Shown: positions 19,862 to 64,000, counted from the first letter of the stretch. The stretch is 64,000 bases of DNA from Parcubacteria group bacterium (GCA_016181765.1 JACOYR010000001.1:157062-221061), one strand, 5' to 3'. Translations and numbers: made by a program. Notes: generated by a model not told the origin, from the sequence alone.

Positions 19862-19874
19862 GGGTTGTGGTTAA

Positions 19875-20981: not shown

Positions 20982-20984
20982 ACT

Positions 20985-22696: not shown

Positions 22697-22707
22697 AAGT
22701 GGAGTAG

Positions 22708-24113: not shown

Positions 24114-24115
24114 AG

Positions 24116-27917: not shown

Positions 27918-27919
27918 AC

Positions 27920-31455: not shown

Positions 31456-31456
31456 A

Positions 31457-35165: not shown

Positions 35166-35938
35166 AGGGTGCGGTACTTCTGATTCATCTCATCCACCTT
35201 CTCAAGCAGCCCAACGTCAACGCCTTTTTTCTTTCCGAGTTCAACCAATGCGAGAAGGTCTTTGGGCAAGCACTTGCCCCCATACCCGCGGTACCCGCCG
35301 TGCAGCACGTCAAAGTGCGAATCAATAATGCGCTGGTCCGACACAAACGCTTCCTTCACTTCGTTGTAATCAACCCCAAGTGATTGGCATAAATCATACA
35401 GCATATTACCGAACACGACCTTGGTCGCATAAAATGTGTTGACAGCGTACTTGACGAGTTCCGTAGAAGCGGCGGACATGATTTTTTTGTACGGCGCATG
35501 TGGAAGCATGTCTAAAACTGATCGGCTGACATCGCGGCTCGTTGACGTATAGCCCACTAATTGTTTATCAGGGTTTTTGAAATCTTGTTCTGCCGTCGCC
35601 TGCGTCAGAAATTCCGGATTGAACAGAACTTTAAGATGCTGATATTTTTGTTGAAAATAATCCGTGGTGCCAGGCACGCATGTTGACTTGATGACGACTA
35701 TGCGCGGCTCGTTGATTGAACCGATTTTTTCAAACACGTCATCAAGCGCGCTCCGGTTGAACCCGTTTTCGTACGGCGTGGGCACGCACACGAAAATCAA
35801 CTCTTGCTTGAGCACCTCCTCCAAGGGATCCATAAGCTTGAATTTGTCGTACACATTGGATCCTCCAAAAAAGGAGGCAACACTGCTTCCCACAAAACCG
35901 CCTCCCATGATCCCTATTGTATACTTATGATTTGACAT
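35162..35938 (-). CDS. Nucleotide-sugar dehydrogenase (UDP-Glc/UDP-ManNAc dehydrogenase family) lacking the C-terminal UDP-binding domain
   Basis: N-terminal GIMGGGFVGSS Rossmann motif, then LIFVCVPTP and the central dimerisation domain (NMLYDLCQSLGVDYNEVKEAF). The ORF ends after about 260 aa and abuts the next gene, so the C-terminal domain of about 100 aa is absent. Confidence 0.55.
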   Translation of the reverse strand: MSNHKYTIGIMGGGFVGSSVASFFGGSNVYDKFKLMDPLEEVLKQELIFVCVPTPYENGFNRSALDDVFEKIGSINEPRIVVIKSTCVPGTTDYFQQKYQHLKVLFNPEFLTQATAEQDFKNPDKQLVGYTSTSRDVSRSVLDMLPHAPYKKIMSAASTELVKYAVNTFYATKVVFGNMLYDLCQSLGVDYNEVKEAFVSDQRIIDSHFDVLHGGYRGYGGKCLPKDLLALVELGKKKGVDVGLLEKVDEMNQKYRTL

Positions 35939-36003
35939 GATACGATGAAAATTGTTGACATGCAGTAATAGTACCAGAAATGCCCTAAAAAACAAGCAGA
36001 TTC

Positions 36004-37107
36004 ATGACCACAATTCTCTACATTGTAACGCAGCAGGAATTCGGGGGCGCACAGCGGTACATATTTGATTTGGCCACGAATTTAGATAAAAGTCAATACG
36101 ACGTTCATATAGCCGCGGGAGAGGAAAAGGAGGGATTCCCAGCTTCTAATGGGGACAAGTTTTTTGACCGCGCCAGAGGCCAAAATTTGACCGTACACAG
36201 CCTCAAACACCTGGTTCGGCCCATCTCCCTTATTAATGATTTTTTAGCCTATTTTGAACTCAAAAAGCTCATTTCCGAGCTCAAGCCGGACATTGTGCAT
36301 CTGAACAGTTCAAAGGCAGGGGTCCTGGGCTCCATGGCAGCCAAGGCGCTTGGAGTGCCCAAAATCATTTACACGGCGCACGGGTTCGTATTCAACGAAC
36401 CAATGAACCCGCTCAAACGCTGGCTCTATACCCACGCCGAACTCGGCACCGCCAAGCGCGTTGACCGCATTATCGCGGTTTCTGAATTTGACCGACAAGC
36501 CGGAATCAAAGCCGGAATTGACGAAAACAAAATAGTGACCGTGCACAATGGCATTGATCCCTCATCTTTACGCTTCTTTTCAGAAGAAGATGCACGCGCT
36601 CAACTGAACATAACAGAGCACACACCGCTCATCGGCTGTATCGCAAACTTTTATCAGACCAAGGGGCTAGATGTGCTGATTGGCGCAATGGCAGACATCA
36701 ACGCACAGCTCGTCATCGTTGGAGACGGCGAACTGCGGCCGCAGTTGGAAGAACAAATCAAAAAACTCAACCTGGCCGACCAAGTCCATCTCACAGGCCA
36801 GCTTCCGGACGCGCACCAATACCTCAAAGCGTTTGATATATTCGTGCTTGCCTCCCGCAAAGAGGGGTTCCCCTACGTTCTGCTTGAGGCGGCTGCCGCG
36901 GGGGTCCCGATTGTGGCAACCAGAGTTGGGGGTGTTCCGGAAATCATTCATGACGAAATAACCGGCTACCTTGCAGAACCCTGCAATCCTGATGAGCTCG
37001 CACAAAAAATCAGCCAAGCGCTCGCGCACCCCCTTGCTCCGCAACTGCCAAAAGACTGCACCGTGCAGCACATGGTTGAAAAGACGCTTGCCGCGTACCG
37101 CGCCTAG
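36004..37107 (+). CDS. Glycosyltransferase family 4
   Basis: MTTILYIVTQQEFGGAQRY; EGFPYVLLEAAAAGVPIVATRVGGVPEII. The only plus-strand gene in the cluster. Confidence 0.8.
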   Translation: MTTILYIVTQQEFGGAQRYIFDLATNLDKSQYDVHIAAGEEKEGFPASNGDKFFDRARGQNLTVHSLKHLVRPISLINDFLAYFELKKLISELKPDIVHLNSSKAGVLGSMAAKALGVPKIIYTAHGFVFNEPMNPLKRWLYTHAELGTAKRVDRIIAVSEFDRQAGIKAGIDENKIVTVHNGIDPSSLRFFSEEDARAQLNITEHTPLIGCIANFYQTKGLDVLIGAMADINAQLVIVGDGELRPQLEEQIKKLNLADQVHLTGQLPDAHQYLKAFDIFVLASRKEGFPYVLLEAAAAGVPIVATRVGGVPEIIHDEITGYLAEPCNPDELAQKISQALAHPLAPQLPKDCTVQHMVEKTLAAYRA

Positions 37108-39495: not shown

Positions 39496-42400
39496 TTATG
39501 ACTTGGAGATTGTCCAACCGTCAAGCGGGATGTAAGAGGACTGGGTGCTTGATGTTGGCACCTGGTACCCATGCGTCCAGTCCTTGCCAGTACCTCTATT
39601 GAGGGTCGCAGCGGCTGACGCGTACGATTTCGCGCTATGGTCGTTAGTGTTTGCTGAATAGTCGGACCACAAGAAGTTGTAGTTTGTGGCATTCAAGCCA
39701 ACCACGCCGTAGCGGTAATTGGTTGTCACGTACGAGAGAGAGGAGAGGTCATGAGTCAAGGCCGCGGTCTGGGTGTCGTCCCCAAGGAGTTGGACTGTGA
39801 CCGAGTCAGAATCCGTGCTTGCTCCCACATGTGCGTTCGCCACGTCAAGCTTAAGCTCGTAGGTGTTGCTGGAGCCGGCATCAATGATCTCTTCCCCATC
39901 GCCATCGTCAGCATTGTCGTACCCAGTCCGCTGGTCACCCAGGAGAACTGTGACGTACGTGCTCGTTGAGTTCTCAGCCCGGCTGGCCAAACCCGCGTTC
40001 GCCATAGATTGCGATGTAAGGGTTGCGGTGCCGGAAGGCGAAAGCTCATCCCCTGCCGCAGTACCAGTGCCGTCAAAGATGACGTACTCGCTGGTGCCCA
40101 AGAGCGAACCGTTGCGATAGAGCTTGAAGTTGGAGAGCGAGAGCAAGGTGCTCGTGGTGGTGTCTGTCCATGAAACCTGGAACGTCATCTTCTTCAGGCG
40201 CACCTGCCCGCCCACTGCTGAAACTTTGAAGTTGGCAACCTGCTTCTGGCTGATTGCACCACCGGAAAGCGTAGTGGAGGTTAAGGCCATGCGCTCAACC
40301 AACGGGTATGCCCTGCGCACGGTGAGCGCGTTGCCGGTAACACCGGTTGTGGGGCCGTTCACTGCGGTTGAGGAGCCAACGCCCCGCGCTGTTATGGCAC
40401 GTGTAGTGCTAGAATCCTCCAAAGGAGTCGCATTCAAGGAGAATGTGTGCGTGGAACCGGATGAAATGGTCGGCCACACATTCACGTCCGCTTTCAGGGT
40501 AAGGGTCTTTTCCGTGCCCTTGGCCACGCGGTACGCATTGGAAGTTCCGAGGTTAAAGTCAACGTATCCGCCCAAGACCGGGGTTCCGGTTGCCAAGGTG
40601 AGAGCGGAAAGCGTGGACCCGATCGGCGTAGAACCATCAAAGAGCTTGAAGTTCTTGAGCGTTGAGGTCGGCTTGCCATCTGCAACGGTCGCGTTGAGCG
40701 TTTCCGCGGCAATGGTGTCGCTGATAATGAACCGCGTAACGTCAACATCTTCGGTAAGCGCCGTAAGCTTGAACTTATACACTTCAACGCCCGTGGCGCC
40801 GCCGGTGATGATGTTTGCTTTTACCTGGGCGCTGGAAGCCACGTTTTCAACCGTGAGGGAGCCGGAGGCCGCCAGATACAGGTTCTGTAAGCCCGCTGAC
40901 ATGGTTCCGTTGGCTGAAGCGCTGGTATCATCCCCGGTTGCGGTAACCGTTGACGGGTACACCACACCGCTTGTGTCAGCATTCACAGAATTAAGCTGGG
41001 TCGTGGTTGCGGAACTCAAGATATCAGCGTAGATGTTTACCACCATCTGCTTAGCCACGCCGAGCTTGATTGCCGGCGAGGCATTGAAGTTATAGGTGGT
41101 GTCTTCGGTATCCGTGAGCGTGCCCACGGTGGTGCCAATGGCTGTGCCAGCCGCATAGTTGCCGTTGGCGTCAGCCGGGCCGCCGGATTCAAGGCGCATA
41201 TTCTGGAATGTGTCAGCTAAGGAGGAGCCAGTGGTTGCGCCAACATCGTCCGTGAGCGTGATTTGCGTGACAGTCACGCCTTCACCCGCGCCGGCCGTAA
41301 TCACGAACGAGCCAATGATCACGTTCTGTTGGCCAAGTACGCCAGTCGGGTTAGCGGCAGACGCATCGCCAACTCCAGTGTTTTCAGCGACACTCAAGGT
41401 GCCGGAAGAACCAGTAAGCGTGTTGCCCGCGACAGAAGGCGTGCTAATGGCTGTGGAAGAAGAGAGAGCGCGCGCGTTAGACGAGCCCGCGGACAAGGTT
41501 ACGGAGATGGAAGCCGCAGCAGCGTAGTTGGTGCCTGCCGCATTCTTGGTGTCTCCGCGGATTTCAATCACTTTTGTGACGCTGGCTGGAATAACCACGC
41601 TCGCTCCGAACGTGAATGCCGCGTCGTCGTTGGTTGCATCAGTGTCGCTGGTTGAGCCGACCTGGGCCCCATCAAAGTACACCTTCACATTGTCCATGCC
41701 ATCCAGAGCGGCAGGAGTCGTAACGGTAAGGGAGTTGATGCGGACATCTTCGCCGGTTGCCTTGAAGTCAAATTTAGCCAAGGTAACGCCCGTCGCGCCA
41801 ACAGCCACATTGCCGGTCGGGGATGAAGTGCTCTTTGAAACAGTCAAAGAGCCGGCATTGACGGTGGTGTTGGTGGTTGAAGAGTTGGACTCAATAATGG
41901 TCCACGTATCCGCGCGGTTGAGCTTGACGTACACATTATACTGCTTGTCGTACACATTCATGTGGTACATCTCCTGCATCTGGAAGTGGATGGTGCGGCT
42001 GGAGCCGGATACCACGTCAAAAATGAGTGATACGGTCTTAGTCTTGCCTTTTTCAATGAGGTACGGGGTTGGGAACGTGAATACGATTTCGTCGCTGTCA
42101 TTCATGCTTGCTACGGTCTCGGAAACGTTAACTCCCCCAACCTGCAGCTGGAAGTCCTTGAGATCGGTCTTTGAGGCCGAACCGGTCATGGAAACCTTCA
42201 TGTACCGGATTTCCATGTCCTGGTCTGTCCCAGCCAGGGTGAAGCGCCATCCCTCGTGGTTATCGGTTCCCGGGTTCACGGTTGCGGCAGCGGCCGGGGA
42301 TACGTTCGTAAGGGTCACGTACCCAAGGTCAGAAGCGGTTGCAACACTCATGGTGTTGCCCATAAGCGGGAATGAGCCAGAAACCGAAGCCCCGTCCGTT

Positions 42401-43563
42401 GCAACGTCAGACGCTGAATTCATGGAGAAGTACATGGTCTTGCCGGAACCCGTGTCATCAGCAAGGTCAATGCGCAAGGTAACGTACTTGGTGGAACCTG
42501 CTGGAACCGTAATCAAGCCGCTGGCATTGGTGAATGTGACCACGCCCGATGAGTAGGAGTTGGACGCGGCGATAAAGCTGGAACCCACGCCATCGCCCTC
42601 AAACAGGTAGAGCGAGTTAGCATCCGCGTTCGCGGAAATGCCGCCGCGCGTGAATTTAAGGGTCGTCACTTTTACGGCGCCATCCGAGCCTGCGGTCAAA
42701 GCGACTTTGGTCAGGGGAATAAACGCCTGGGCTCCGTCATTGCCGCCGTTTGAAGAGTCAGCAATCACGGTTGCAGCAGCCGGAGTATCGCTTGCCAAGG
42801 AAACCGTCAACCCGGATCCAACCGGCGTTGTGGTGCCCGGAGGAGTGGTTACCACAGGAGCTGCGCCCACGCCGTCAGGAATAGTGACGGAAGATTCCTT
42901 TACCACAATCTGGGAGCCATCTGCATAGGTCTCGGAAGAAGGAATGGTAATAACCGGAATGTTCGCGTATCCATTCACCTTAATCACGTCCGTGGAAGCA
43001 AATGGCCGCTTCTGGTCCGCCTGCAAGAGGTAGACCGTGGAAGAGTTCGCGTACTTTACCAAGGTTCCGTTGGGGTGCGTGGTGGTTGAAGTCACCATGT
43101 CACCGGCTGCGCCATACTTGTCCAAAAAGGACTGCGGAAGCCAGGTGATGTTGTCGTAGTTGAATCCGAGCGTTTCAAAGACTTCGGCGGACACGATCGG
43201 GCGAAGTTTTTCGCCGGATACAAAGTACACTGCCGGTGTCTCTAATGCTCTGATCAACGCGCCATCGCGGAATTCCACGTCATTCCCGACGGTAAACCCG
43301 GACAGGTTCGTGGTGAACGTGCTACTGAAGTTCGCTGGGAAGCCCCAGGACGTGTACACGTTCTGGTGGGGGAATGGGTGAATAGTCACGCCATCCGCGT
43401 CCACAAGATACACTGCCGGATTGCCTGCGCCCTTAATGAGGTCGCCTGCTGCTGCACCGACTGTGACCGGCGCCAGCGCAAACAAACCAACGCTCCACAC
43501 TATGGTGGATACCGTTAAAGTAGCTGACAGGACCTTTTTAGAGTGTTTTATGATATCACTCAT
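39496..43563 (-). CDS. Very large secreted surface protein (1355 aa), rich in Thr, Ser, Gly and Ala, repetitive and probably beta-rich; S-layer/adhesin-like
   Basis: N-terminal signal peptide/TM helix (LSATLTVSTIVWSVGLFALAPVTVGAAAG). Three N-terminal repeats of about 55 aa (AVYLVDADGVTIHPF..., AVYFVSGEKLRPIVSAEVFETLGF..., TVYLLQADQKRPFASTDVIKVNGY...). About 40% of residues are T/S/G/A with almost no Cys. RBS AAGGAG lies upstream of the ATG. Confidence 0.8.
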   Translation of the reverse strand: MSDIIKHSKKVLSATLTVSTIVWSVGLFALAPVTVGAAAGDLIKGAGNPAVYLVDADGVTIHPFPHQNVYTSWGFPANFSSTFTTNLSGFTVGNDVEFRDGALIRALETPAVYFVSGEKLRPIVSAEVFETLGFNYDNITWLPQSFLDKYGAAGDMVTSTTTHPNGTLVKYANSSTVYLLQADQKRPFASTDVIKVNGYANIPVITIPSSETYADGSQIVVKESSVTIPDGVGAAPVVTTPPGTTTPVGSGLTVSLASDTPAAATVIADSSNGGNDGAQAFIPLTKVALTAGSDGAVKVTTLKFTRGGISANADANSLYLFEGDGVGSSFIAASNSYSSGVVTFTNASGLITVPAGSTKYVTLRIDLADDTGSGKTMYFSMNSASDVATDGASVSGSFPLMGNTMSVATASDLGYVTLTNVSPAAAATVNPGTDNHEGWRFTLAGTDQDMEIRYMKVSMTGSASKTDLKDFQLQVGGVNVSETVASMNDSDEIVFTFPTPYLIEKGKTKTVSLIFDVVSGSSRTIHFQMQEMYHMNVYDKQYNVYVKLNRADTWTIIESNSSTTNTTVNAGSLTVSKSTSSPTGNVAVGATGVTLAKFDFKATGEDVRINSLTVTTPAALDGMDNVKVYFDGAQVGSTSDTDATNDDAAFTFGASVVIPASVTKVIEIRGDTKNAAGTNYAAAASISVTLSAGSSNARALSSSTAISTPSVAGNTLTGSSGTLSVAENTGVGDASAANPTGVLGQQNVIIGSFVITAGAGEGVTVTQITLTDDVGATTGSSLADTFQNMRLESGGPADANGNYAAGTAIGTTVGTLTDTEDTTYNFNASPAIKLGVAKQMVVNIYADILSSATTTQLNSVNADTSGVVYPSTVTATGDDTSASANGTMSAGLQNLYLAASGSLTVENVASSAQVKANIITGGATGVEVYKFKLTALTEDVDVTRFIISDTIAAETLNATVADGKPTSTLKNFKLFDGSTPIGSTLSALTLATGTPVLGGYVDFNLGTSNAYRVAKGTEKTLTLKADVNVWPTISSGSTHTFSLNATPLEDSSTTRAITARGVGSSTAVNGPTTGVTGNALTVRRAYPLVERMALTSTTLSGGAISQKQVANFKVSAVGGQVRLKKMTFQVSWTDTTTSTLLSLSNFKLYRNGSLLGTSEYVIFDGTGTAAGDELSPSGTATLTSQSMANAGLASRAENSTSTYVTVLLGDQRTGYDNADDGDGEEIIDAGSSNTYELKLDVANAHVGASTDSDSVTVQLLGDDTQTAALTHDLSSLSYVTTNYRYGVVGLNATNYNFLWSDYSANTNDHSAKSYASAAATLNRGTGKDWTHGYQVPTSSTQSSYIPLDGWTISKS

Positions 43564-56416: not shown

Positions 56417-56692
56417 ATGGCTCTTAGTAGCAACAAAACACCCCTGCTACTGGCGTGCACGCTCGCCTTTGCCAGAATCCAAGAAACGGAATTCAGAGTG
56501 TGCATCCGGCCGAACGGCGAGCCGCCCATACCGCTTCCGTGGAGTGAAGCGGGTCTGGAAAGGCTCAAGGCGGAACACAGGGGCGCGTTCCGCCATATAG
56601 CGCAGGAGGGCCTGCTCGCGGTTCTTTCCGAGCACCCGCTCGTCGTGGCACTCGGCTGGGAAGAGTACGGAATTGTCTCTTGCATCGGCTAA
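56417..56692 (+). CDS. Hypothetical small protein (91 aa)
   Basis: RBS GGAGG lies 6 nt upstream of the ATG. No motif. Confidence 0.35.
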   Translation: MALSSNKTPLLLACTLAFARIQETEFRVCIRPNGEPPIPLPWSEAGLERLKAEHRGAFRHIAQEGLLAVLSEHPLVVALGWEEYGIVSCIG

Positions 56693-56790
56693 ATGCGCCG
56701 CAGACGGAGTTGGGGCCGGGTGGAACACAGCAGTTCCATCTGGCCTCTTTTTTTGATATACTGACATATTATTCACTCGCGCTTTACTCT

Positions 56791-57330
56791 ATGGTTACTA
56801 CGCTTTCGGTTTTAACGCTTATCGCGGATATCATCATCGTGCTCGCAATCCTTGCCTGGATCGTGGAACGATTCCATAAACTCCGGTTTTTGAACCCAGT
56901 CAAGCAATTAGTCCGTAAGTACAGCCTGGAACTGCTCTTCATCATACCCTTGATTGCAACTCTTGGTAGCCTCTACCTCTCCGAAATCAAGGGCTGGACT
57001 CCGTGCAAGCTCTGCTGGTACCAACGCATAGCTATGTACCCGCAGGTGATTCTGGTGGGAACGGCGCTCGCGCGCAAAGCAAAAGGCATCGCGAGCTACC
57101 TCATCCCCCTCTCTTTGATTGGCGCGCTGATTTCAACGTTGCACTACACCGAACAAATCCGCGCTCGCCTCTCTCCGCTTGATCCGCTCGCTCCGTGCGA
57201 CCTTTCCGGCGTATCCTGCGCCGCAACCCCCATCTTCCACTTCGGGTACATCACTATTCCGGTGATGGCGTTTTCCGCGTTTGTGCTGATTCTGATTGTG
57301 GCGCTGGTAAGCACATCCAAGAGCGAGTAA
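56791..57330 (+). CDS. dsbB: Disulfide bond formation protein B (DsbB/BdbC family)
   Basis: CKLCWYQRIAMYP (the C-x2-C pair in BdbC-type context). Four TM helices. A second Cys pair (CDLSGVSC) sits in the second periplasmic loop. Start taken at the internal Met. Confidence 0.75.
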   Translation: MVTTLSVLTLIADIIIVLAILAWIVERFHKLRFLNPVKQLVRKYSLELLFIIPLIATLGSLYLSEIKGWTPCKLCWYQRIAMYPQVILVGTALARKAKGIASYLIPLSLIGALISTLHYTEQIRARLSPLDPLAPCDLSGVSCAATPIFHFGYITIPVMAFSAFVLILIVALVSTSKSE

Positions 57331-57331
57331 C

Positions 57332-58491
57332 ATGAAAAAAATCCTTGCCGTACTTGCCCTGGTTGTGGTTCTGGGCCTGCCCGCGCTCACAGCAGGCGCC
57401 CAAGAGGCGCCCAAACCGGAGCGAACCGTGATTGAGGTGTTTGAGCGGGATGACTGCAGCCACTGCAGGGACTTTTTCGCATTTATTGATGATCTCGCGG
57501 CCGAGCGGGATGATTTTGTAGTGCGCTCGTATGATCTCTACACCCCGGAAGGAAAGACTTTTTTTGATGAAGCAACAAATGCGCTGCAACTTGTAAAAGG
57601 CACGCCCATCATCTACCTCAAAGGTACTATTATCCAAGGGTTTGACACCGCAGAAACCACGGGCGCGCAAATCACCGCGCTTCTTGACGCGAATGACCAA
57701 ACAGCCTCCCTATCCTTGCGCGAAGTTGTTGACGCGGCTAAGAGCGGGAAAACCGACCAGCCCGTGCTCCCCTCGGGCGCGATCTGTGATGACAAAACGT
57801 TGTGCACAGTGCAAACCCCTGCCGCAACCGTGCGCATCCCGTTCACGGATAGAATAATTGATCCGGGCCAGTACTCCTTGCCCGTGCTCGCCGCGATCCT
57901 CGGAACCGTGGACGGATTCAATCCCTGCGCCATGTGGGTGCTCGTGATGTTCCTCGCGGCCCTGGTTGCCATCAATTGTGGCTGTATGCCTGGGATTTCA
58001 TCGGGTTGGACCACATCGTCACTCCGCTCGTGGGGCTCGTTGCAATCGCTGCGGGGGCTTACTTTTTGCGTGAATTTCACCGCGGCGAGGTTGCCTGCAG
58101 CATCGCAAACCCGCAACAGCGCAAACGGATTTCGGAAAAAATCAAAGACTTCGCGAGCAAGCCCCTCACCATACTCGGCGCACTCGGCATCATCGCAATC
58201 GCATTTTCCGTGAACATCTTTGAGTTCGCGTGCTCCATCGGCATTCCCCAGACCTTCACCAAAATCCTGGATCTCGCAAACCTCTCCTGGGCAGCGAAGC
58301 AGCTCTACAACGCAATCTACATCCTGGGCTACATGCTGGATGATTTCATCGTGTTCGGCATTGCCTTGTATAGTTTTGAAAAAATCGGCGTCACGCAAAA
58401 ATACTCGCGCATCTCCCACCTCATTGGCGGGTTACTGATGGCAGCGCTCGGCTTGATACTGCTCTTGAAACCCTCGCTGCTTGTACTGTAG
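57332..58491 (+). CDS. Thioredoxin-like (CSHC) secreted domain fused to a DsbD/CcdA-like polytopic membrane domain; apparent frameshift at about 57975 to 57990
   Basis: Signal peptide, then VFERDDCSHCRDFF (thioredoxin-fold CxxC). The hydrophobic domain begins GFNPCAMWVLVMFLAALVAI in one frame and continues LWLYAWDFIGLDHIVTPLVGLV...EFACSIGIP in the other. The junction lies within ...gccatcaattgtggctg.... Confidence 0.45.
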
Positions 58492-58983
58492 CGCGTACCG
58501 GCTGAATTCATACACGCCGAAAAACAAAGCGCTGTACGCGACATAACCCGCGAATGAATTCCGAAAAAACGGAATCCCGGCGGCATATGACGCCATGAGC
58601 CCTACAACATCAGGCGAATACATGCCGCTCGCAGCCCAGACCGCCGCATTTGTGGTGAGATAGAAGATGACCGATGACGCAATGCTCGCGCCCAGCGCGG
58701 TCGTGAATGAGTAGCGCTGCCGTGCCGCGTAGGATGCGCCGAGCGTGAACGCGTAGGACGCGTACACCGTAGCCATGACCGAGAACTGGTACGGCCCGAT
58801 GATAACATCAGAGAGAGCCAGGGCCGCGAGCGGAAGCCAGAGCCACTTCCGCGGAAGCAAAAATCCAAAAAACAGCATCAGGGAGCCCATTGGCGTAAAG
58901 TTCCACGGATGCGGGATGATGCGGCCGATAACCGCGAGCATGGCGGCGAACGCGCCAAAAAAAACCAGGTTTGTTTTATTCAT
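58432..58983 (-). CDS. Small polytopic membrane protein (183 aa); possible ECF-type substrate-capture (S) component
   Basis: About six TM helices. Last gene of a riboswitch-fronted operon. Assignment is by size, topology and context only. Confidence 0.35.
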   Translation of the reverse strand: MNKTNLVFFGAFAAMLAVIGRIIPHPWNFTPMGSLMLFFGFLLPRKWLWLPLAALALSDVIIGPYQFSVMATVYASYAFTLGASYAARQRYSFTTALGASIASSVIFYLTTNAAVWAASGMYSPDVVGLMASYAAGIPFFRNSFAGYVAYSALFFGVYEFSRYALQYKQRGFQEQYQAERCHQ

Positions 58984-59419
58984 AGTTCTTGAATAAGGAT
59001 GAAGTGAATTTCCACATAATCACATCTCCGGGCCGCACCGCGTACGCGTCCGCCGCGACCTCGGCATATTTGTTGTTCACCCAGTACTGCCAGTACTTTT
59101 TGTCAGCGCCGTTCTCATAGCCGTTGATGTTCCCAATGAGGATGCCGAGGTCGCCATAGTCAGTTGCGGCCACGGAAAGCTCGCCCGATGCGGCGGCGGT
59201 CCGTTCCAGCAACGACCATACCGTATCTCCTTCGGCGACGGAACGATCAGAAAATCCGAGCAGCTCCGAGCCGGTGTCAATCATGATGCTGGTCGGTTGC
59301 TCGGTTTGCGCGTACTCGCCCCTCTCGCCGGTTGCGGATTGGCCATCAAACCCGAGCCCGAGCAAAAACCCGGCAACCAAGAATAGGATTCCGAGAACAA
59401 GAAACTTAATCTGCTTCAT
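58976..59419 (-). CDS. Secreted/anchored small protein (147 aa), DUF4430-like
   Basis: N-terminal TM/signal segment. Soluble domain with GDTVWSLLE...YWQYWVNNKYAEV...GDVIMWKF reminiscent of DUF4430 proteins found in cobalamin-uptake loci. Tentative. Confidence 0.35.
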   Translation of the reverse strand: MKQIKFLVLGILFLVAGFLLGLGFDGQSATGERGEYAQTEQPTSIMIDTGSELLGFSDRSVAEGDTVWSLLERTAAASGELSVAATDYGDLGILIGNINGYENGADKKYWQYWVNNKYAEVAADAYAVRPGDVIMWKFTSSLFKNYE

Positions 59420-59958
59420 ACAAAACTGATTTGATAATTATGGCCGTGGCTCTCGCCTTTCCGGCGGCGAATCAGGTATGCCGCAATGATAATCAACGTG
59501 CCGTCAACCGCGTATACCGCAACATGCCAAAGGTTCGGAAGCGTGATCGGCGCACGCGGCGTGGACGCTCCCGCAACACGCGGCGCAATGAACTCAAGGG
59601 GGATGCGGATGCCGCCCGCGACTTTCAGAGCCGAACCCTGGCGGCTGTCCAAAGAAACAATCGCAAGGTGTGTTTTTTGGGATTCCGCGGGCATACGAAA
59701 CCGCAGCACCACGTCCTGCGACTCTCCGGGAGCCAGGCTAAACTGTGCCGGATTCATGCTCGCGCGTTCTCTGAACGCGCCAGGCACCGAAAGCCCATAG
59801 CGCTGGGGGATGGTGTCTGTGTTGGTGACCCGCACGCGGGACGTGGCCACTTCTCCGGTAATCCCTTGCACCGCAATGCGCGAAACATCAACCGAAGAGC
59901 TTCCGGCAAGCACGGCGGACGGAATGAGCAGCAGTATTGCAATGATCGCATGCTTCAT
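59416..59958 (-). CDS. Cell-surface protein with signal peptide and C-terminal membrane anchor (180 aa)
   Basis: Signal peptide, beta-rich central region, C-terminal hydrophobic helix followed by RRRKGE. Confidence 0.4.
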   Translation of the reverse strand: MKHAIIAILLLIPSAVLAGSSSVDVSRIAVQGITGEVATSRVRVTNTDTIPQRYGLSVPGAFRERASMNPAQFSLAPGESQDVVLRFRMPAESQKTHLAIVSLDSRQGSALKVAGGIRIPLEFIAPRVAGASTPRAPITLPNLWHVAVYAVDGTLIIIAAYLIRRRKGESHGHNYQISFV

Positions 59959-59960
59959 AC

Positions 59961-61778
59961 CTAATTCGCGCTATGCGCCCAAAAAATTAAGGTTCCGCTC
60001 TCTGCTCCGGCGCTTGCATAGGAGCCGGGCACGGATAGCGTGACGCCGACTGGCGCGTTCCTGTTCCCGGCAACGCTCTTCTGCCACTGGGGCGGAGCCA
60101 CGTTATCCAAGGTCAGGTTGCCGGTGAACAGCGATGATCCGGACACAGATGCGGTAGTGATGATGCTTCCCGCGCTGCTGTTGGTAATCGTAGCCTGACG
60201 GGTTCCGGACTGGCCCGGAAGCAGGGTGCCGAAGTTCAAATCTCCGGACACGCCGAAGCTCACGCCGCCCGTAGGCGTTGATCCGGGCCCCGGGCTGCCG
60301 CCGGCGCCACTGCTGCCAATGGTCACCGAGAGCGGCAAACTTGCCTGCTCCGGAGCATCCCCGACGACAACGAGAATCGCGCCGCTGCGCACGCGGTTAT
60401 CCGCTTCCGCAACCAAGTAGAAGGCACCCTCCTGATTCCAAACAAGACTGACCTGGCCCGCGGCATTGCTGGTGAATGACTCGCTGCCGCGTTTTAAGGT
60501 CGCGCCCGAGAACGGCTGCCATGAGCCGCTTGAGTACTCCTGCACAACCGCGGTTGTTGCGTCCCCTGCCGCGACTGATGAGACGTCATGCACCGCGCGC
60601 AGGGGTTTATCATCCCATGCTCCGTAGTACCAGACAAGCTCGTCTCCTTCGGACATAACGTAATCGCCTGCTCCGACTTGGGCCATTTCGTAGTTTGGCA
60701 GGTACGACCAGCCGTCCGGGCCAGCAGCTGCCTCGCCCGCGATGGTGGTAAGGTAGGGCCCGTACTGCGTATCTTGAATGACGTACGTATACCCGCACGG
60801 GCCCGCCGCGGACTTGATGACGTCAAGGCTGGTTCTGCCTTGCGCCTCTGTATCACAGATCGTTTCCGATTGGCCCTCAATGCGCAACGTAACGGTCGGA
60901 GGCGCGGCAATTGACGCGACCGGGTAGTATTTTCCGGCCATCGCTATTGCCGCGTAGGACGTGGAGACCAGCGTGAATAAATCAGCGCTTAAAGATTGCG
61001 CATCAAACAAAAAGTATCCACCCGCGTGCTGGCGCGCGTTCAAATAATCAACCGGCGTTTTCCCGGCCCGCGACCAAAAACTGACATCCTCTCCGAGCGC
61101 ATACAGCGCGGACAGCGCCCAGGCGGTTGACGGCGTATTGGAAGCGCCTCCCAAAGCCAGGGGAAATCCGCCATCATCATTCTGGCTCGCAAGCAAATAC
61201 TCCGAAGCCCCAAGAACCGCGTCATCGCTCGGCGCAACTCCGGCGGCAACAAGCGCCATGATGCCCATGGCCGTGTAATCAATGCTTGATTCAGTGGCAC
61301 CAGCGGACCAATCCCATCCTCCGTCCGCAAGCTGGTTGGTTTTGAGGTAATTGACTGTCTGCACGACCAAGGAATCATTGGACGGAACGCCCGCTGCATG
61401 AAGCGCGAGCAGCCCAAAGATATCATCGCTCACCATGCTCGCATCTCCGATTTGTCCGTTGCTCGCTTTCTGGCGAAGCCCGTACACCAAGTTTTCGTTG
61501 CCAAATGAACGCGGGTCGCGGCCCAAGGCCGTGATTGCGAGAATATAGGTCGCATAATCATTGGCAGTACTCCCGTCCAGCGCCTTCAAAAATGAGGCAT
61601 CAACGCCTCCTGCGCCGATGGCCGAGCGCGCCATGACTGACCAGTCGGTCTGCGGGTTAATGCCCGCGAGATAGGCCCCAACTTCCGGAGCGACCGCGGC
61701 GCGCGTGGAATCAAAAATCCCTGCCACCGGCAAAACCAGAAGCATGGCGGCTACAATATAGGAAGCGAGTGTTTTCAT
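59961..61778 (-). CDS. Secreted protein with prenyltransferase/squalene-oxidase (alpha-alpha toroid) repeats
   Basis: Signal peptide. Repeats such as DGGWDWSAGATESSIDYTAMGIMALVAAG and NDDGGFPLALGGASNTPSTAWALSALYALG (QW-like terpenoid-cyclase repeats). C-terminal Gly/Ser-rich, beta-rich domain. Confidence 0.65.
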   Translation of the reverse strand: MKTLASYIVAAMLLVLPVAGIFDSTRAAVAPEVGAYLAGINPQTDWSVMARSAIGAGGVDASFLKALDGSTANDYATYILAITALGRDPRSFGNENLVYGLRQKASNGQIGDASMVSDDIFGLLALHAAGVPSNDSLVVQTVNYLKTNQLADGGWDWSAGATESSIDYTAMGIMALVAAGVAPSDDAVLGASEYLLASQNDDGGFPLALGGASNTPSTAWALSALYALGEDVSFWSRAGKTPVDYLNARQHAGGYFLFDAQSLSADLFTLVSTSYAAIAMAGKYYPVASIAAPPTVTLRIEGQSETICDTEAQGRTSLDVIKSAAGPCGYTYVIQDTQYGPYLTTIAGEAAAGPDGWSYLPNYEMAQVGAGDYVMSEGDELVWYYGAWDDKPLRAVHDVSSVAAGDATTAVVQEYSSGSWQPFSGATLKRGSESFTSNAAGQVSLVWNQEGAFYLVAEADNRVRSGAILVVVGDAPEQASLPLSVTIGSSGAGGSPGPGSTPTGGVSFGVSGDLNFGTLLPGQSGTRQATITNSSAGSIITTASVSGSSLFTGNLTLDNVAPPQWQKSVAGNRNAPVGVTLSVPGSYASAGAESGTLIFWAHSAN

Positions 61779-61784
61779 ATAAAA

Positions 61785-61960
61785 ATACCTGCTTCCTCAA
61801 GCAGGGTCTTTAATGGGCGCAAAACGCTCACTTCCTTACTCGAGGAACCGTCCGCCGAATCGGCGAACGACCTTTCAGTACTCGGACTCCCCGCCCTTGA
61901 GGCGGGTCACCGTTGCGGCACAGCGCCGGATTTGCACCGGACTTCCCTGAAAGGATTTAT
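61785..61960 (-). ncRNA. Cobalamin (B12) riboswitch with terminator/RBS-sequestering expression platform
   Basis: Minus-strand core AGGGAAGUCCGGUGCAAAUCCGGCGCUGUGCCGCAACGGUGA matches the B12-element consensus (GGGAAG-CGGUG-AAAUCCG...CCGC-AC-GU-A). P1 is CCUGAAAGG/CCUUUCAG. Downstream hairpin cctgcttgaggaagcagg plus UAUUUUUAU lies directly before the ATG of the 605-aa gene and sequesters GAGGAAG. Confidence 0.7.
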
Positions 61961-62026
61961 TTAATTGTTACGCAGTGTTACCTTACCACATCCGAGTTGC
62001 GATTCAAGCATACGGTTGTGGATAAC

Positions 62027-62064
62027 GTTCCCCCATGGCCAACCGAACCTTTCTCGGCCATGGG
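62027..62064 (-). terminator. Hairpin (11-bp GC-rich stem) downstream of nrdJ; candidate terminator without a clear U-run
   Basis: cccccatggcc...ggccatggggg. Confidence 0.35.
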
Positions 62065-62087
62065 GGGTCACGACAAGCATGAAAATA

Positions 62088-64000
62088 CTAACACTTGGAA
62101 TACCCGCAGCTCCGGCACAGTTGGCACCCTTCGCCCATTTCAAGCACGCCCCCGCACTGCGGGCACTCGGGCGCGTGGCCATGGTCCGCCATTGAGGTGG
62201 AAGCTGCGTGAGTGCCGTGCGCCGCGGCGCCATGATGCAAGGCAAGTTGGGTCTGCTCGCCCCTGATGTGGCGTTCCAGAACTTTTGCGATAGCGTCCGG
62301 AAGCGAAAGAATCTTGTCACCGTTCGTGCCGAAGCTGGGCATGGGCCCGCGGATGCCTTTGAGCTGGGTAATCACGGCTTCCGCAGCAATGCCGCTGCGC
62401 AAGGCAAGGGACGCAAGCCTGCACACGGCTTCCGATTTCGCGTTAAAGAATCCGCCTGCCTTGCCGATTTGCGCGAACACCTCAAACGGCGCGCCGTCCT
62501 CTCCTTCGTTCACGGTCACGTACAAGGAGCCGTACGCGGTCTTTACCTTGTATGTCTTTCCGCTCACCACCTCGGGCCGCGCCTTGGGCTCGCGGTGCGG
62601 CGTTGCTGCTTCGGTATGCGCCTGTTCCTGTTTTTTCGCGGATGCATCCAATGATTCAAGCACTGAAACATCACGGGAGTTCTCCCGAAAATAGGTTACG
62701 CCCTTGCACCCGAGCTCGTACGCTTTTAGGTATAACTCTTTCACGTCCTCGTGCGTATGGTTCTCGGGCGCGTTCACGGTCTTTGATATTGAGGCATCGG
62801 TGTACTTCTGGATGACTGCCTGCATGGTAACATGCTCCAAGGGAGTGAGCTGCTTGGCATTCACAAAGTAATCCGGAACCGGCTCCCCGGGGTGCTGTTC
62901 TAGGTACTCCTTATACATCTGGTGGTACACAATATGCTCGCCAATCCGGTCCTTTCGCTTAAACGAAAAATCGTACACCGGCTCAATGCCGGAAGAAACC
63001 CCTGCCAAGAGGCTCGTGGTTCCGGTCGGAGCCTGGGTTTGGAGAACGCCGTTGCGAATGCCATACTGCTCAATACTTGTCCGAATATCCTCGGGAAGGC
63101 GCTGAATGTAGACGCCCTGCAGGTACTTCTCTTTATCAAAATCCGGAAACGATCCTTTTTCGCGGGCAATCTCAACGGACGCGCGGTAGGATTCGTCCCG
63201 GATAAACCGGTACACCTGCTCCGCGAGCGCGAGAGCCTCGCCGCTGCCGTAGCGGACCTTGAGCTTAATGAGGAAATCCCCGAGCCCCATGGTGCCCAAG
63301 CCGGTCCGGCGCACGTTCATCTGCGCCCTGCGGTTCTCTTCGTACGCATACGGAGTCGCGTCCACCACGTTGTCCGCGAACCGCATGGCAATGCGGACTG
63401 CCTTTCCCAAAGCTTCCCAGTCAACCGTGTTGTCGTCTCTGGCGAACGGCACCAAATTGATGGCCCCTAAATTGCACACGCCCCACGCGGGCAAAGGCTG
63501 CTCCCCGCACGGGTTCACGCTGATGATGTCCTCAAAATACCAGGTATTGGATTCCTTATTGCAGCGCTCCATGAACACGCACCCGGGCTCTCCTGATGCG
63601 TGCGCTGATTCGGTGATGAGATCCCAGAGTTTCGCGGCTCTGACCGTCTTGAACACCTTACCGTCCCACTTGAGATCCCAATCCGCATCGCGCGCAACGG
63701 CGTCCATAAAGCGGTCCGAGACGCACACCGAGAGGTTGGCGTTCGTAATCTGGCCCATCTGGCGCTTGACGGTGATGAATTCCTCAACGTCCGGATGGTC
63801 GTCGTTGATCATGAGCATCAGGGCTCCTCTCCGGCTTCCGCCCTGCTCAATCAAGCCCGTCACGAACGAGTACAAAGCGCCGAACGAAACCGCGCCCGAA
63901 GCGCGCCCGTTCACGCCTTTTACGTACGCGCCGCGCGGGCGCAGTGAAGACAGGTTGACGCCCACCCCGCCGCCGCGCGCCATAATCTCCATCATAGTGG
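62088..64000 (-). CDS. nrdJ: Adenosylcobalamin-dependent (class II) ribonucleotide reductase, N-terminally truncated by the window edge
   Basis: Active-site region SVNPCGEQPLP. Thiyl-radical Cys and the redox pair are present. C-terminal zinc ribbon CPQCGGVLEMGEGCQLCRSCGY. The ORF is open to the window end. Confidence 0.85.
   Translation of the reverse strand, partial: TMMEIMARGGGVGVNLSSLRPRGAYVKGVNGRASGAVSFGALYSFVTGLIEQGGSRRGALMLMINDDHPDVEEFITVKRQMGQITNANLSVCVSDRFMDAVARDADWDLKWDGKVFKTVRAAKLWDLITESAHASGEPGCVFMERCNKESNTWYFEDIISVNPCGEQPLPAWGVCNLGAINLVPFARDDNTVDWEALGKAVRIAMRFADNVVDATPYAYEENRRAQMNVRRTGLGTMGLGDFLIKLKVRYGSGEALALAEQVYRFIRDESYRASVEIAREKGSFPDFDKEKYLQGVYIQRLPEDIRTSIEQYGIRNGVLQTQAPTGTTSLLAGVSSGIEPVYDFSFKRKDRIGEHIVYHQMYKEYLEQHPGEPVPDYFVNAKQLTPLEHVTMQAVIQKYTDASISKTVNAPENHTHEDVKELYLKAYELGCKGVTYFRENSRDVSVLESLDASAKKQEQAHTEAATPHREPKARPEVVSGKTYKVKTAYGSLYVTVNEGEDGAPFEVFAQIGKAGGFFNAKSEAVCRLASLALRSGIAAEAVITQLKGIRGPMPSFGTNGDKILSLPDAIAKVLERHIRGEQTQLALHHGAAAHGTHAASTSMADHGHAPECPQCGGVLEMGEGCQLCRSCGYSKC

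What the first reader, a model, noticed from the sequence alone, without database searches (positions are those of the whole stretch)
58432..62090. Cobalamin riboswitch controlling a four-gene surface-protein operon immediately downstream of B12-dependent nrdJ
A clear B12-element core with a terminator-like hairpin that also sequesters the RBS precedes genes for four products. These are a secreted protein with prenyltransferase/squalene-oxidase repeats, a surface-anchored protein, a DUF4430-like protein and a small six-TM membrane protein. From established knowledge, such riboswitches repress B12 uptake and salvage genes. The inference is that these proteins form an extracellular cobalamin or corrinoid capture system. 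It is adjacent to, and functionally linked with, the class II RNR that needs adenosylcobalamin. The function of the alpha-alpha-toroid-repeat surface protein in B12 capture is not established.
Basis: partly seen in the sequence, partly recalled or inferred. Interest (0 to 1): 0.6.

Follow-up and report, generated by a model that had tools for sequence, protein, structure and literature searches.

The report
B12-riboswitch-controlled vitamin B12 capture operon
A vitamin-B12-sensing RNA switch in a tiny candidate-phyla-radiation bacterium controls four genes that most likely grab B12 outside the cell with a protein shaped like human transcobalamin and pass it to a small membrane carrier, feeding the B12-dependent DNA-precursor enzyme encoded next door.

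Summary
Rfam places an AdoCbl riboswitch at 61846..61968 (-), 52.6 bits against a cut-off of 50. It sits between the nrdJ stop and four tightly coupled genes (58432..61778, -) in a Parcubacteria MAG.

- **Gene A (605 aa):** a full bacterial look-alike of transcobalamin, with an alpha/alpha toroid plus a DUF4430 beta-grasp. Its 15 best PDB fold matches are transcobalamin, haptocorrin and intrinsic factor.
- **Gene B:** the membrane anchor of A. It follows A in 72 of 73 related loci, and is fused to A in the remaining one.
- **Genes C and D:** C (DUF4430) and D (DUF6580) mirror the CbrS-CbrT pair of the Lactobacillus nrdJ-cbrS-cbrT-pduO cluster. D is a distant relative of ECF S-components.
- **Conservation:** the B12 core motif lies just upstream of A in 55 of 73 Patescibacteria loci and nowhere else in them. 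Class II RNR and cobalamin adenosyltransferase genes recur nearby.
- **DUF6580 elsewhere:** it also sits in B12-riboswitch operons outside this group.

It is less new than implied: toroid plus beta-grasp surface proteins were predicted to bind B12 in 2007. What appears new is the CPR-wide A-B module and the B12 link of DUF6580. No binding, transport or regulation was measured.

The parts
62088..63998 (-). nrdJ, the adenosylcobalamin-dependent (class II) ribonucleotide reductase. Its 5' end is cut by the window edge. It is the B12 consumer and is not under this riboswitch.
   Evidence: TIGR02504 NrdJ_Z 514.5 bits (cut-off 400); PF02867 and TSCPD.
61980..62007 (-). Promoter-like site: TTGAAT, 16 nt, TGgTAAGGT (extended -10), ending about 10 nt before the aptamer.
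   Evidence: Read from the sequence. The same TGnTAAGAT element sits at the equivalent place in L002 and L004. The consensus scan did not flag it, so this is inference.
61846..61968 (-). AdoCbl/cobalamin riboswitch aptamer.
   Evidence: RF01482, 52.6 bits, E 8.5e-7. Core motif at 61909..61938 with 0.05 expected by chance.
61832..61847 (-). P13-like hairpin UUCCU-CGAGUA-AGGAA. Its 5' strand (61847..61839) can instead pair with 61801..61793 as an antiterminator.
   Evidence: It matches the Rfam consensus P13 loop CuUCGAGGcAAaG. A YTCGAG hairpin is present in 45 of 64 related leaders. The minimum-free-energy fold contains the long-range helix.
61779..61805 (-). Intrinsic-terminator-like hairpin (61805..61788) plus U tract (61787..61779). 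Its 3' arm AAGCAGG overlaps the likely ribosome-binding site, 9 nt before the ATG.
   Evidence: A terminator plus U run precedes gene A in 60 of 64 related leaders.
59961..61778 (-). A: secreted transcobalamin-like protein. Alpha/alpha toroid at residues ~30-285, DUF4430/SLBB beta-grasp at ~295-390, then two beta-sandwich domains at ~391-487 and ~508-605.
   Evidence: Pfam. AF2 model with pLDDT 88.9. Foldseek top 15 hits are TC, haptocorrin and IF, E 5e-13 to 7e-10. The beta domain hits only TC/haptocorrin in the PDB, E 1.6e-6.
59416..59958 (-). B: Ig-like protein with a signal peptide and a C-terminal transmembrane anchor; proposed membrane tether of A.
   Evidence: Weak FixG_C/PapD-like hits. 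Follows A in 72 of 73 loci. Natural A::B fusion P0013/L004, E 5e-43.
58976..59419 (-). C: membrane-anchored single DUF4430 (transcobalamin beta-domain-like) protein; counterpart of CbrS.
   Evidence: PF14478, E 8e-14. 34% identity over 65 aa to the Lactobacillus CbrS-position protein, E 7e-7. Natural DUF6580::DUF4430 fusion P0468.
58432..58983 (-). D: DUF6580 membrane protein with 6-7 helices, related to ECF S-components; proposed B12 translocator in the CbrT position.
   Evidence: PF20221, E 2e-39. AF2 pLDDT 96.2. hhalign to S-component domains gives probability 91.6%, E 8e-7. The only PDB profile hit is CbrT 6fnp_A, E 0.27. DUF6580 lies in B12-riboswitch operons elsewhere.

Best explanation
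This is a B12-repressed corrinoid scavenging operon of a B12-auxotrophic Parcubacteria (CPR) cell.

Regulation (inferred). Transcription starts at an own promoter between nrdJ and the aptamer. When AdoCbl is plentiful it binds the aptamer and the P13-like hairpin stays closed. The terminator at 61805..61788 then forms; it stops transcription and also buries the ribosome-binding site. When B12 is scarce, the 5' strand of P13 (UUCCUCGAG) pairs with CUUGAGGAA. This dissolves the terminator and the four genes are made.

Capture and uptake (inferred).
- A is exported and held at the cell surface by its partner B, which has an Ig-like domain and a C-terminal membrane helix.
- A captures cobalamin between its toroid and beta-grasp domains, as transcobalamin does.
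- The vitamin is handed to C, a membrane-tethered beta-grasp domain equivalent to CbrS.
- D, an S-component-like DUF6580 protein equivalent to CbrT, carries it across the membrane. D either works with an ECF module encoded elsewhere or works alone, as BtuM does.
- Inside the cell, an adenosyltransferase makes AdoCbl for NrdJ. In close relatives this is pduO, directly upstream of nrdJ.

Shown here: the RNA family match, operon structure, folds, homologies, fusions and conserved synteny. Inferred: ligand, direction of regulation, the hand-over order and the energy source.
For: 1. The riboswitch is real and conserved. One search gives the Rfam hit. Cobalamin-clan Rfam hits lie just 5' of A in L009, L015, L021, L032, L054, L065, L070 and L078. 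The core motif lies within 500 nt upstream of A in 55 of 73 loci. The few remaining hits are also + strand and 5' of or at the start of A (about 850-1000 nt upstream in L001/L005/L007, where an extra gene intervenes), with no hit elsewhere in about 880 kb.
2. A resembles transcobalamin. Foldseek aligns about 400 columns covering both TC domains. At sequence level, GYTYVIQDTQYGPYLTTIAGE aligns with GFTYETQASLSGPYLTSVMGK of human TC.
3. A and B form one unit.
4. C and D match CbrS-CbrT. Lactobacillus loci L089 and L090 read RNR-II, DUF4430, PF12822 (CbrT), PduO, as described in PMC5997447. C is similar to CbrS. A DUF6580::DUF4430 fusion exists.
5. D is related to S-components. Distant relatives of A are fused to S-component domains labelled PF12822, PF07155 or PF20221.
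6. In L070 and L078 a different S-component-like 6-TM gene fills the D slot, followed by a class II RNR and pduO.
7. Functional neighbours recur: NrdJ in 17 loci, PduO in 9 and CobA/BtuR in 7 of 80.
8. DUF6580 follows Cobalamin riboswitches in loci named Terriglobales/Acidoferrum by their sources (L085, L086, L091) and in L092.
9. The expression platform has a conserved P13-like hairpin and terminator.
Against: - No experiment supports any step: ligand binding, transport and B12-dependent repression are all untested.
- The Rfam score is only 2.6 bits above the cut-off. cmscan also aligned the model's P13 to a different hairpin from the one I propose.
- A does not reach the Pfam transcobalamin model PF01122. 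The Foldseek TM-scores are low (0.26-0.45) and the rmsd is about 20 A, so the relative domain placement in the model differs from holo-TC.
- Foldseek of D against the PDB gave no significant E-value. The best TM-score was 0.51/0.56 to FolT 4huq_S, and the CbrT profile hit is only E 0.27.
- C and D are absent downstream of A-B in most loci (C in 26 of 65, D in 20 of 65), so A-B can work with some other transporter.
- In Bdellovibrio, DUF6580 lies next to acs and dus with no riboswitch, so the family need not be B12-specific everywhere.
- No ECF module was seen in the window, and the rest of the genome could not be read.
- A related Lactobacillus sakei operon has been argued to take up heme.
Confidence: 0.78

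Rival explanations
1. The machinery is the same but the cargo differs. The surface proteins and DUF6580 would take up heme, another tetrapyrrole, or only incomplete corrinoids such as cobinamide. The riboswitch would merely co-ordinate this with B12 status.
For: A bioRxiv study of the L. sakei lsa1836-1840 ECF-like operon, which has transcobalamin alpha- and beta-like subunits, argues for heme uptake. ECF-CbrT also transports cobinamide. Binding residues were not analysed here.
Against: Three classes of B12 riboswitch precede A in many lineages. The recurring neighbours are B12-specific: class II RNR, PduO and CobA. The beta domain of A matches only B12 carriers in the PDB.
Confidence: 0.08
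2. A-B is a B12 binder, but the operon does not itself translocate B12. D (DUF6580) would have another role, such as membrane scaffold or processing. Import would go through an unrelated transporter, with A-B mainly sequestering or storing B12 at the surface, possibly taking it from a host cell.
For: Most loci have only riboswitch-A-B, without C-D. The structural match of D to S-components is weak by Foldseek. DUF6580 occurs in non-B12 contexts in Bdellovibrio.
Against: D occupies the CbrT position next to a CbrS-like protein. It is homologous to S-component domains and is fused to DUF4430 in P0468. It lies in B12-riboswitch operons with TonB receptors and BtuCD-like genes in another phylum. 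In L070 and L078 another S-component-like protein replaces it.
Confidence: 0.1
3. A is an enzyme of the terpenoid cyclase/prenyltransferase superfamily acting on envelope lipids, and the riboswitch association is incidental.
For: Pfam and NCBIfam hits to squalene-hopene cyclase and prenyltransferase domains, and PDB sequence hits to drimenyl diphosphate synthase.
Against: The scores are far below the family cut-offs (37 bits against 323 for TIGR01787) and cover only 2-3 toroid repeats. The protein is secreted. There is no DxDD motif (residues 115-120 read VSDDIF). The best fold matches are the non-enzymatic B12 carriers. The toroid is followed by the TC beta domain.
Confidence: 0.02
4. The regulation is purely translational. 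The hairpin at 61805..61788 only masks the ribosome-binding site and does not terminate transcription.
For: The stem has only 7 bp and the U tract is interrupted (UAUUUUUAU). The 3' arm lies 9 nt before the ATG.
Against: Stronger hairpins with runs of 5-8 U sit at the same place in relatives, for example L021, L013 and L004. The two modes are not exclusive.
Confidence: 0.25

Closest known systems
ECF-CbrT and the nrdJ-cbrS-cbrT-pduO cluster of Lactobacillus delbrueckii (Santos et al. 2018, PMC5997447; PDB 6FNP)
   Same: A small DUF4430 protein is followed by a roughly 180-aa S-component-type membrane protein, next to class II RNR, with pduO present in close relatives of the window. The predicted role is the same: B12 import for NrdJ.
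   Different: The membrane protein is DUF6580 (PF20221), not PF12822, and matches CbrT only at E 0.27. A riboswitch is present here but was not detected in L089 or L090. There is an additional full-length transcobalamin-like protein A with its anchor B. No ECF module was seen nearby.
Animal transcobalamin, intrinsic factor and haptocorrin
   Same: Two-domain build, an alpha/alpha toroid followed by a beta-grasp. These proteins are the 15 best fold matches. The GPYLT and W motifs of the beta domain are conserved.
   Different: About 17-20% identity, and no match to Pfam PF01122. A has two extra beta-sandwich domains and a separate membrane-anchor subunit. It is bacterial and riboswitch-regulated.
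Bacterial SLBB (transcobalamin-like) surface proteins predicted by Burroughs, Balaji, Iyer and Aravind 2007 (PMC1796856)
   Same: Secreted or anchored toroid plus SLBB proteins predicted to bind extracellular B12.
   Different: That work described mainly Gram-positive bacteria and some archaea. It covered neither Patescibacteria, nor the obligate A-B pair, nor DUF6580, and it does not mention riboswitches (0 occurrences).
BtuM of Thiobacillus denitrificans (Rempel et al. 2018, PMC6072759)
   Same: A small 6-TM S-component-like protein proposed to import B12 without an ECF module. This is a possible working mode for D.
   Different: No sequence match: 6FFV is absent. There is no conserved cysteine ligand in DUF6580. 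BtuM lacks extracellular partner proteins.
Lactobacillus sakei lsa1836-1840 ECF-like operon (bioRxiv 10.1101/864751)
   Same: An ECF-type transporter encoded together with transcobalamin alpha-like and beta-like proteins.
   Different: There the alpha and beta parts are separate proteins with a dedicated ECF module, and the authors propose heme as the substrate.

Membership tests
Cobalamin riboswitch clan CL00101 (Rfam AdoCbl RF01482) | Covariance-model score at or above the curated gathering score | tested here: met
   52.6 bits against 50, E 8.5e-7, full-length model match.
Cobalamin riboswitch clan CL00101 (Rfam AdoCbl RF01482) | Conserved B12-box/core sequence in a 5' leader, conserved in orthologous leaders | tested here: met
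   Core motif present with no mismatch, 0.05 expected by chance. It is present upstream of A in 55 of 73 loci. Rfam hits occur in 8 related loci.
Cobalamin riboswitch clan CL00101 (Rfam AdoCbl RF01482) | P13 hairpin/expression platform able to switch between two structures | tested here: inconclusive
   A conserved YTCGAG hairpin and competing terminator/antiterminator pairings were found. However, cmscan aligned P13 to another hairpin, and the L5-L13 contact was not verified.
Cobalamin riboswitch clan CL00101 (Rfam AdoCbl RF01482) | Binds AdoCbl and represses the downstream genes | not testable with these tools
   Needs in-line probing, in vitro transcription, or a reporter or RNA-seq experiment with and without B12.
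Transcobalamin/intrinsic factor/haptocorrin (Pfam PF01122 plus PF14478) | N-terminal alpha6/alpha6 toroid followed by a C-terminal beta-grasp (SLBB) domain | tested here: met
   AF2 model. Foldseek top 15 hits are TC, HC and IF over about 400 columns. PF14478 hit at residues 336-386.
Transcobalamin/intrinsic factor/haptocorrin (Pfam PF01122 plus PF14478) | Sequence match to the eukaryotic Cobalamin_bind model PF01122 | tested here: not met
   No PF01122 hit at E <= 0.1 for A. One distant relative, P0063, carries a precomputed PF01122 hit.
Transcobalamin/intrinsic factor/haptocorrin (Pfam PF01122 plus PF14478) | High-affinity cobalamin binding between the two domains | not testable with these tools
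   Needs binding assays or a co-structure.
ECF transporter S-component superfamily (e.g. PF12822, CbrT) | Small protein of about 6 transmembrane helices homologous to S-components | tested here: met
   AF2 model with 6-7 helices. hhalign of the DUF6580 profile against PF12822-, PF07155- or PF20221-labelled S-component domains (P0067, P0068 and P0087 carry PF12822) gives probability 91.6%, E 8e-7, 145 columns. The only PDB profile hit is CbrT, at a weak E of 0.27. The best Foldseek TM-score is to FolT 4huq_S, 0.51/0.56, with a non-significant E-value.
ECF transporter S-component superfamily (e.g. PF12822, CbrT) | Direct match to a named S-component Pfam model | tested here: not met
   Only PF20221 (DUF6580) is hit.
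ECF transporter S-component superfamily (e.g. PF12822, CbrT) | An ECF module (EcfA, EcfA', EcfT) in the same genome | not testable with these tools
   No pair of ABC ATPases is present in the 64 kb window. The 335 kb source contig could not be fetched; only a 1.9 kb copy was returned.
CbrS-CbrT type B12 uptake cluster | DUF4430 gene immediately followed by the S-component gene, clustered with nrdJ and a cobalamin adenosyltransferase | tested here: met
   The window has nrdJ, riboswitch, A, B, C (DUF4430), D. pduO lies directly upstream of nrdJ in L001, L003, L004, L007, L009 and L013.
BtuM | Sequence relationship to BtuM and a conserved cobalt-ligating cysteine | tested here: not met
   No hit to 6FFV. 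There is no conserved Cys among the invariant columns of the DUF6580 alignment.
Class II terpenoid cyclases/prenyltransferases (enzymes) | Full-length match above the family cut-offs and the catalytic DxDD motif | tested here: not met
   TIGR01787 scores 37 bits against a cut-off of 323. Residues 115-120 read VSDDIF. The protein carries a signal peptide.

The most novel reading that the evidence does not exclude
DUF6580 would be a large, unstudied family of vitamin B12 (corrinoid) membrane carriers. The 50%-identity library holds about 5,000 clusters at E <= 1e-10. On this reading the family is S-component-like, works with a DUF4430 'CbrS-like' partner, and possibly needs no ECF module. The A-B pair would be a true bacterial transcobalamin tethered to the cell surface, and the main B12 scavenging device of the candidate phyla radiation. 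That would bear on how these reduced, often epibiotic cells obtain B12 for DNA synthesis, and on the proposed bacterial origin of animal B12 carriers.
Probability: 0.5. Interest if true: 0.6.

Novelty: new variant of a known kind. Interest (0 to 1): 0.45.

Why it matters
Patescibacteria have tiny genomes, and the ones carrying this system depend on a B12-requiring ribonucleotide reductase to make DNA precursors. How they obtain the vitamin is therefore central to their dependence on other microbes.

The locus offers three things:
- A compact, testable B12 acquisition route for this group.
- A bacterial protein with the full two-domain build of human transcobalamin. The PDB searches here found no solved bacterial example.
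- A functional lead for DUF6580, a domain of unknown function with thousands of members, which recurs in B12-riboswitch operons in more than one bacterial group.

The general idea is not new. B12-riboswitch-controlled uptake genes, transcobalamin-like bacterial surface proteins and S-component B12 carriers have all been described.

Tried and rejected
- **Single-sequence PDB searches.** Searches with C and D gave nothing meaningful.
- **Source contig.** Fetching the 335 kb contig through protein A returned only a 1.9 kb copy. pduO, ECF-module and B12-biosynthesis genes of this genome could not be checked.
- **Literature.** Rodionov et al. 2009, the original CbrT prediction, is not held. Searches for DUF6580, and for B12 or riboswitches in Patescibacteria/CPR, found nothing. 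That is a limit of the library, not proof of novelty.
- **Iterated C profile.** My iterated HMM for C absorbed A because both carry DUF4430, so the 'C' labels at the A position were corrected by hand.
- **Terminator finder.** My automatic finder picked a hairpin inside the coding region for the window.
- **Terpene-cyclase reading of A.** Considered and rejected; see the rival explanations.
- **BtuM membership of D.** Considered and rejected; see the membership tests.
- **Rfam sensitivity.** Rfam at the gathering threshold missed riboswitches that the core motif finds (L001, L003, L016, L052). Counts of riboswitch conservation therefore rest on the motif.

Full report
**1. What is in the window**

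A scan of all 64 kb against Rfam gives a single hit. It is the AdoCbl riboswitch aptamer RF01482 at 61846..61968 on the minus strand, 52.6 bits (gathering score 50), E 8.5e-7, matched over the full model. The conserved core, written as GGTNNNANTCCNNNNCTGNNCCGCANCNGT, occurs once (61909..61938, no mismatch) against 0.05 expected by chance.

The aptamer lies between the stop codon of a class II ribonucleotide reductase gene and four minus-strand ORFs. The reductase gene is nrdJ (62088..63998, cut by the window end; TIGR02504 at 514 bits, TSCPD domain). The ORFs are:
- A, 59961..61778
- B, 59416..59958
- C, 58976..59419
- D, 58432..58983

Their junctions are a 2-nt gap, an ATGA overlap and an 8-nt overlap, so they form one translationally coupled operon. 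Protein A is 100% identical to a protein of a Parcubacteria group MAG.

**2. The leader**

Reading the minus strand, the elements in order are:
- a promoter-like TTGAAT, 16 nt, TGgTAAGGT (62007..61980), whose extended -10 is also present in L002 and L004
- the aptamer
- a variable hairpin
- a hairpin UUCCU-CGAGUA-AGGAA (61847..61832)
- the hairpin CCUGCUU-GAGG-AAGCAGG (61805..61788)
- UAUUUUUAU, then the ATG

The 61847..61832 hairpin matches the consensus P13 loop of RF01482 (CuUCGAGGcAAaG, printed). A hairpin of the form YTCGAG is found downstream of the core in 45 of 64 related leaders, and a terminator-like hairpin with a U run precedes gene A in 60 of 64.

In the window the minimum-free-energy fold pairs UUCCUCGAG (61847..61839) with CUUGAGGAA (61801..61793). 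This is incompatible with the terminator (z about -3.7).

I therefore propose three states. With ligand, P13 is closed and the terminator forms, which is the off state. Without ligand, the antiterminator forms, which is the on state. The 3' arm of the terminator, 9 nt from the ATG, doubles as the ribosome-binding site. This is inference from sequence and comparison. The L5-L13 contact and ligand dependence were not tested, and cmscan placed the model's P13 on the variable hairpin instead.

**3. Protein A is a bacterial look-alike of transcobalamin**

Pfam finds toroid repeats (SQHop_cyclase, Prenyltrans) at residues ~105-255 and a DUF4430 domain at 336-386.

The AF2 model (pLDDT 88.9) has four parts: a helical toroid (~30-285), a beta-grasp (~295-390) and two beta-sandwich domains. 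Its 15 best Foldseek matches in the PDB are transcobalamin, haptocorrin and intrinsic factor. These have E-values of 5e-13 to 7e-10 and about 400 aligned columns, covering both domains of those proteins, and they rank ahead of the terpene cyclases.

The beta domain alone hits only transcobalamin and haptocorrin in the PDB (E 1.6e-6). The conserved stretch GYTYVIQDTQYGPYLTTIAGE aligns with GFTYETQASLSGPYLTSVMGK. Y342, L343 and W357 are (nearly) invariant in 48 homologues.

There are caveats. TM-scores are low and rmsd is high, so the relative domain placement in the model differs from ligand-bound transcobalamin. A also does not reach Pfam PF01122.

Burroughs et al. 2007 had already predicted that bacterial surface proteins combining a toroid with this beta-grasp (SLBB) domain bind extracellular B12, and that animals acquired transcobalamin from such proteins.

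**4. Protein B is the anchor of A**

B has a signal peptide, an Ig-like domain (weak FixG_C/PapD-like hits) and a C-terminal membrane helix followed by RRRK. Among 80 related loci from species-representative genomes, all Patescibacteria-type MAGs, B follows A in 72 of 73 cases with enough downstream sequence. The single exception, L004, encodes a natural A::B fusion: in P0013, residues 536-699 match B residues 19-180 at E 5e-43.

**5. C and D correspond to CbrS and CbrT**

C is a membrane-tethered single DUF4430 domain. D is DUF6580, modelled with pLDDT 96.2 as a bundle of 6-7 helices.

Several lines link D to ECF S-components:
- A profile of 58 DUF6580 proteins finds one PDB sequence only, 6fnp_A, at a non-significant E of 0.27. 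This is CbrT, the B12-specific S-component of ECF-CbrT. The CbrT fragment belongs to PF12822.
- Distant relatives of A from high-GC bacteria are fusions of an N-terminal S-component domain with a toroid. Pfam labels that domain PF12822, PF07155 or PF20221.
- The DUF6580 profile matches these S-component domains with hhalign probability 91.6%, E 8e-7, over 145 columns.
- Foldseek gives no significant E-value, but the best TM-scores are to S-components: FolT 4huq_S at 0.51/0.56, then 5edl and CbiM.

Santos et al. 2018 state that cbrT lies in an nrdJ-cbrS-cbrT-pduO cluster. I fetched CbrT loci to check. In L089 (L. helveticus) and L090 (99% identical to 6fnp_A) the order is class II RNR, a 136-149-aa DUF4430 protein, PF12822 CbrT, PduO adenosyltransferase. 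C is 34% identical to that DUF4430 protein over 65 residues, E 7e-7. A natural DUF6580::DUF4430 fusion exists (P0468). No riboswitch was detected in the Lactobacillus loci at the gathering threshold.

**6. Conservation of the regulon**

Rfam finds Cobalamin-clan aptamers of three families (AdoCbl, AdoCbl-II, Cobalamin) immediately 5' of A in L009, L015, L021, L032, L054, L065, L070 and L078.

The core motif, allowing up to 3 mismatches, lies within 500 nt upstream of A in 55 of 73 loci that have enough upstream sequence. The few remaining hits are also + strand and 5' of or at the start of A; in L001, L005 and L007 they lie about 850-1000 nt upstream because an extra gene intervenes. There is no hit on the other strand or elsewhere in about 880 kb.

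The minimal conserved unit is riboswitch-A-B. C follows in 26 and D in 20 of 65 loci. In L070 and L078 a different S-component-like 6-TM protein, with the motif RxLPxRPPNVE, takes the place of D. It is followed by an ATP-cone class II RNR and pduO.

Clustering of neighbours shows NrdJ in 17 loci, PduO-type adenosyltransferase in 9 and CobA/BtuR in 7. In all six close relatives with upstream sequence the order is pduO-nrdJ-riboswitch-A. The window most likely has pduO just beyond its end.

**7. DUF6580 outside this group**

- In three loci whose proteins the sources name Terriglobales or Acidoferrum (L085, L086, L091), a Cobalamin riboswitch (up to 83.5 bits) precedes a TonB-dependent receptor, a Diphthami_syn_2-like gene and DUF6580, next to FecCD/ABC genes.
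- L092 reads NrdR, RNR, CobA, Cobalamin riboswitch, DUF4430, DUF6580.
- L093 has DUF6580 between a CobQ-like gene and a BtuF-like binding protein.
- Bdellovibrio-type loci show no B12 link.

The family has 6,795 clusters at E <= 1e-3 and 5,022 at E <= 1e-10 in the 50%-identity library. I found no paper mentioning it.

**8. Interpretation**

The best-supported reading is a B12-repressed corrinoid scavenging operon:
- A, tethered by B, captures cobalamin outside the cell in the way transcobalamin does.
- C receives it at the membrane.
- D translocates it, either with an ECF module encoded elsewhere or alone, as proposed for BtuM.
- A PduO-type enzyme makes AdoCbl for NrdJ.

The RNA family match, operon structure, folds, homologies, fusions and synteny are shown by computation. 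The ligand, the sign of regulation, the hand-over order and the energy source are inferred.

The rivals are a different cargo (heme, as argued for L. sakei, or only cobinamide), a non-transport role for D, an enzymatic role for A, and purely translational control. They are listed with their tests in the rival explanations.

**9. Comparison and novelty**

The riboswitch is an ordinary member of a well-known family. The protein set is a variant of the CbrS-CbrT type of B12 uptake cluster, combined with the transcobalamin-like surface proteins predicted in 2007.

As far as the held literature shows, three things are new:
- the obligate A-B capture module and its wide distribution in Patescibacteria
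- the use of DUF6580 in the S-component position
- the recurrent placement of DUF6580 in B12-riboswitch operons in more than one bacterial group

I rate it a new variant of a known kind, of moderate interest.

Noticed in passing
window 56680..58491 (+): A DsbB gene (56680..57330) is followed by two overlapping ORFs in different frames (57332..58213 and 57934..58491). Together they look like one gene: a thioredoxin-like domain (CSHC) plus a CcdA/DsbD-like membrane domain, broken by a frameshift near 57950-58000. This could be an assembly error, a pseudogene or recoding. DsbA-like thioredoxin genes also sit next to A-B in 11 of 80 related loci. A has a nearly invariant cysteine pair, C308/C328, so a link to disulfide formation in the exported proteins is possible.
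   Followed up: partly
L001:5114-5890, L005:1502-2104, L007:5317-5931: In three close relatives an extra gene of 200-258 aa lies between the riboswitch and gene A. It has a twin-arginine-like signal (SRRRFL), in two cases followed by a cysteine (possible lipobox), and no Pfam match. It is absent from the window.
   Followed up: partly
L085:4324-5004, L086:4321-5004, L091:4202-4894; proteins P0432, P0466: A Diphthami_syn_2 (PF01902, PP-loop ATPase-like) gene sits between the TonB receptor and DUF6580 in the B12-riboswitch operons of L085, L086 and L091. It is fused to DUF6580 in P0432 and P0466. Its role in B12 handling is unknown.
   Followed up: no
L055:2537 and 3828; L055:2728-3717: This Buchananbacteria locus has two B12 core motifs. 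The first precedes a shorter toroid-only gene (329 aa, weak Prenyltrans hit) and the second precedes gene A. It is a tandem riboswitch-gene duplication.
   Followed up: no
window 62030..62066 (-): An 11-bp G+C-rich hairpin (CCCCCATGGCC ... GGCCATGGGGG) follows the nrdJ stop codon by about 20 nt but has no U tract. It may end or stabilise the nrdJ transcript.
   Followed up: no
window 61846..61878 (-) versus 61832..61847 (-): cmscan aligned the 3' hairpin (P13) of the AdoCbl model to GUUCGCCGAUUCGGCGGAC. Comparison with related leaders and with the model's own consensus loop points to the next hairpin, UUCCUCGAGUAAGGAA. The Rfam hit may therefore be about 15 nt too short.
   Followed up: partly
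L001:2262-4226 and 4244-4732: nrdJ appears split into two adjacent ORFs in L001. This could be a frameshift, a stop codon, or a genuinely split gene.
   Followed up: no
Loci L002, L006-L008, L011, L013, L032, L035, L038, L046, L054 and others: Many third-party MAG records carrying this Patescibacteria-type locus are titled 'uncultured Gammaproteobacteria bacterium' or 'Candidatus Saccharibacteria bacterium'. The titles look like placeholder or wrong taxonomy.
   Followed up: no
window 1..37100 and 39496..43563 (-): More than half of the window is a long, mostly minus-strand run of ORFs of unchecked function. There is also a 1355-aa ORF with an N-terminal hydrophobic segment. None of this was analysed.
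   Followed up: no
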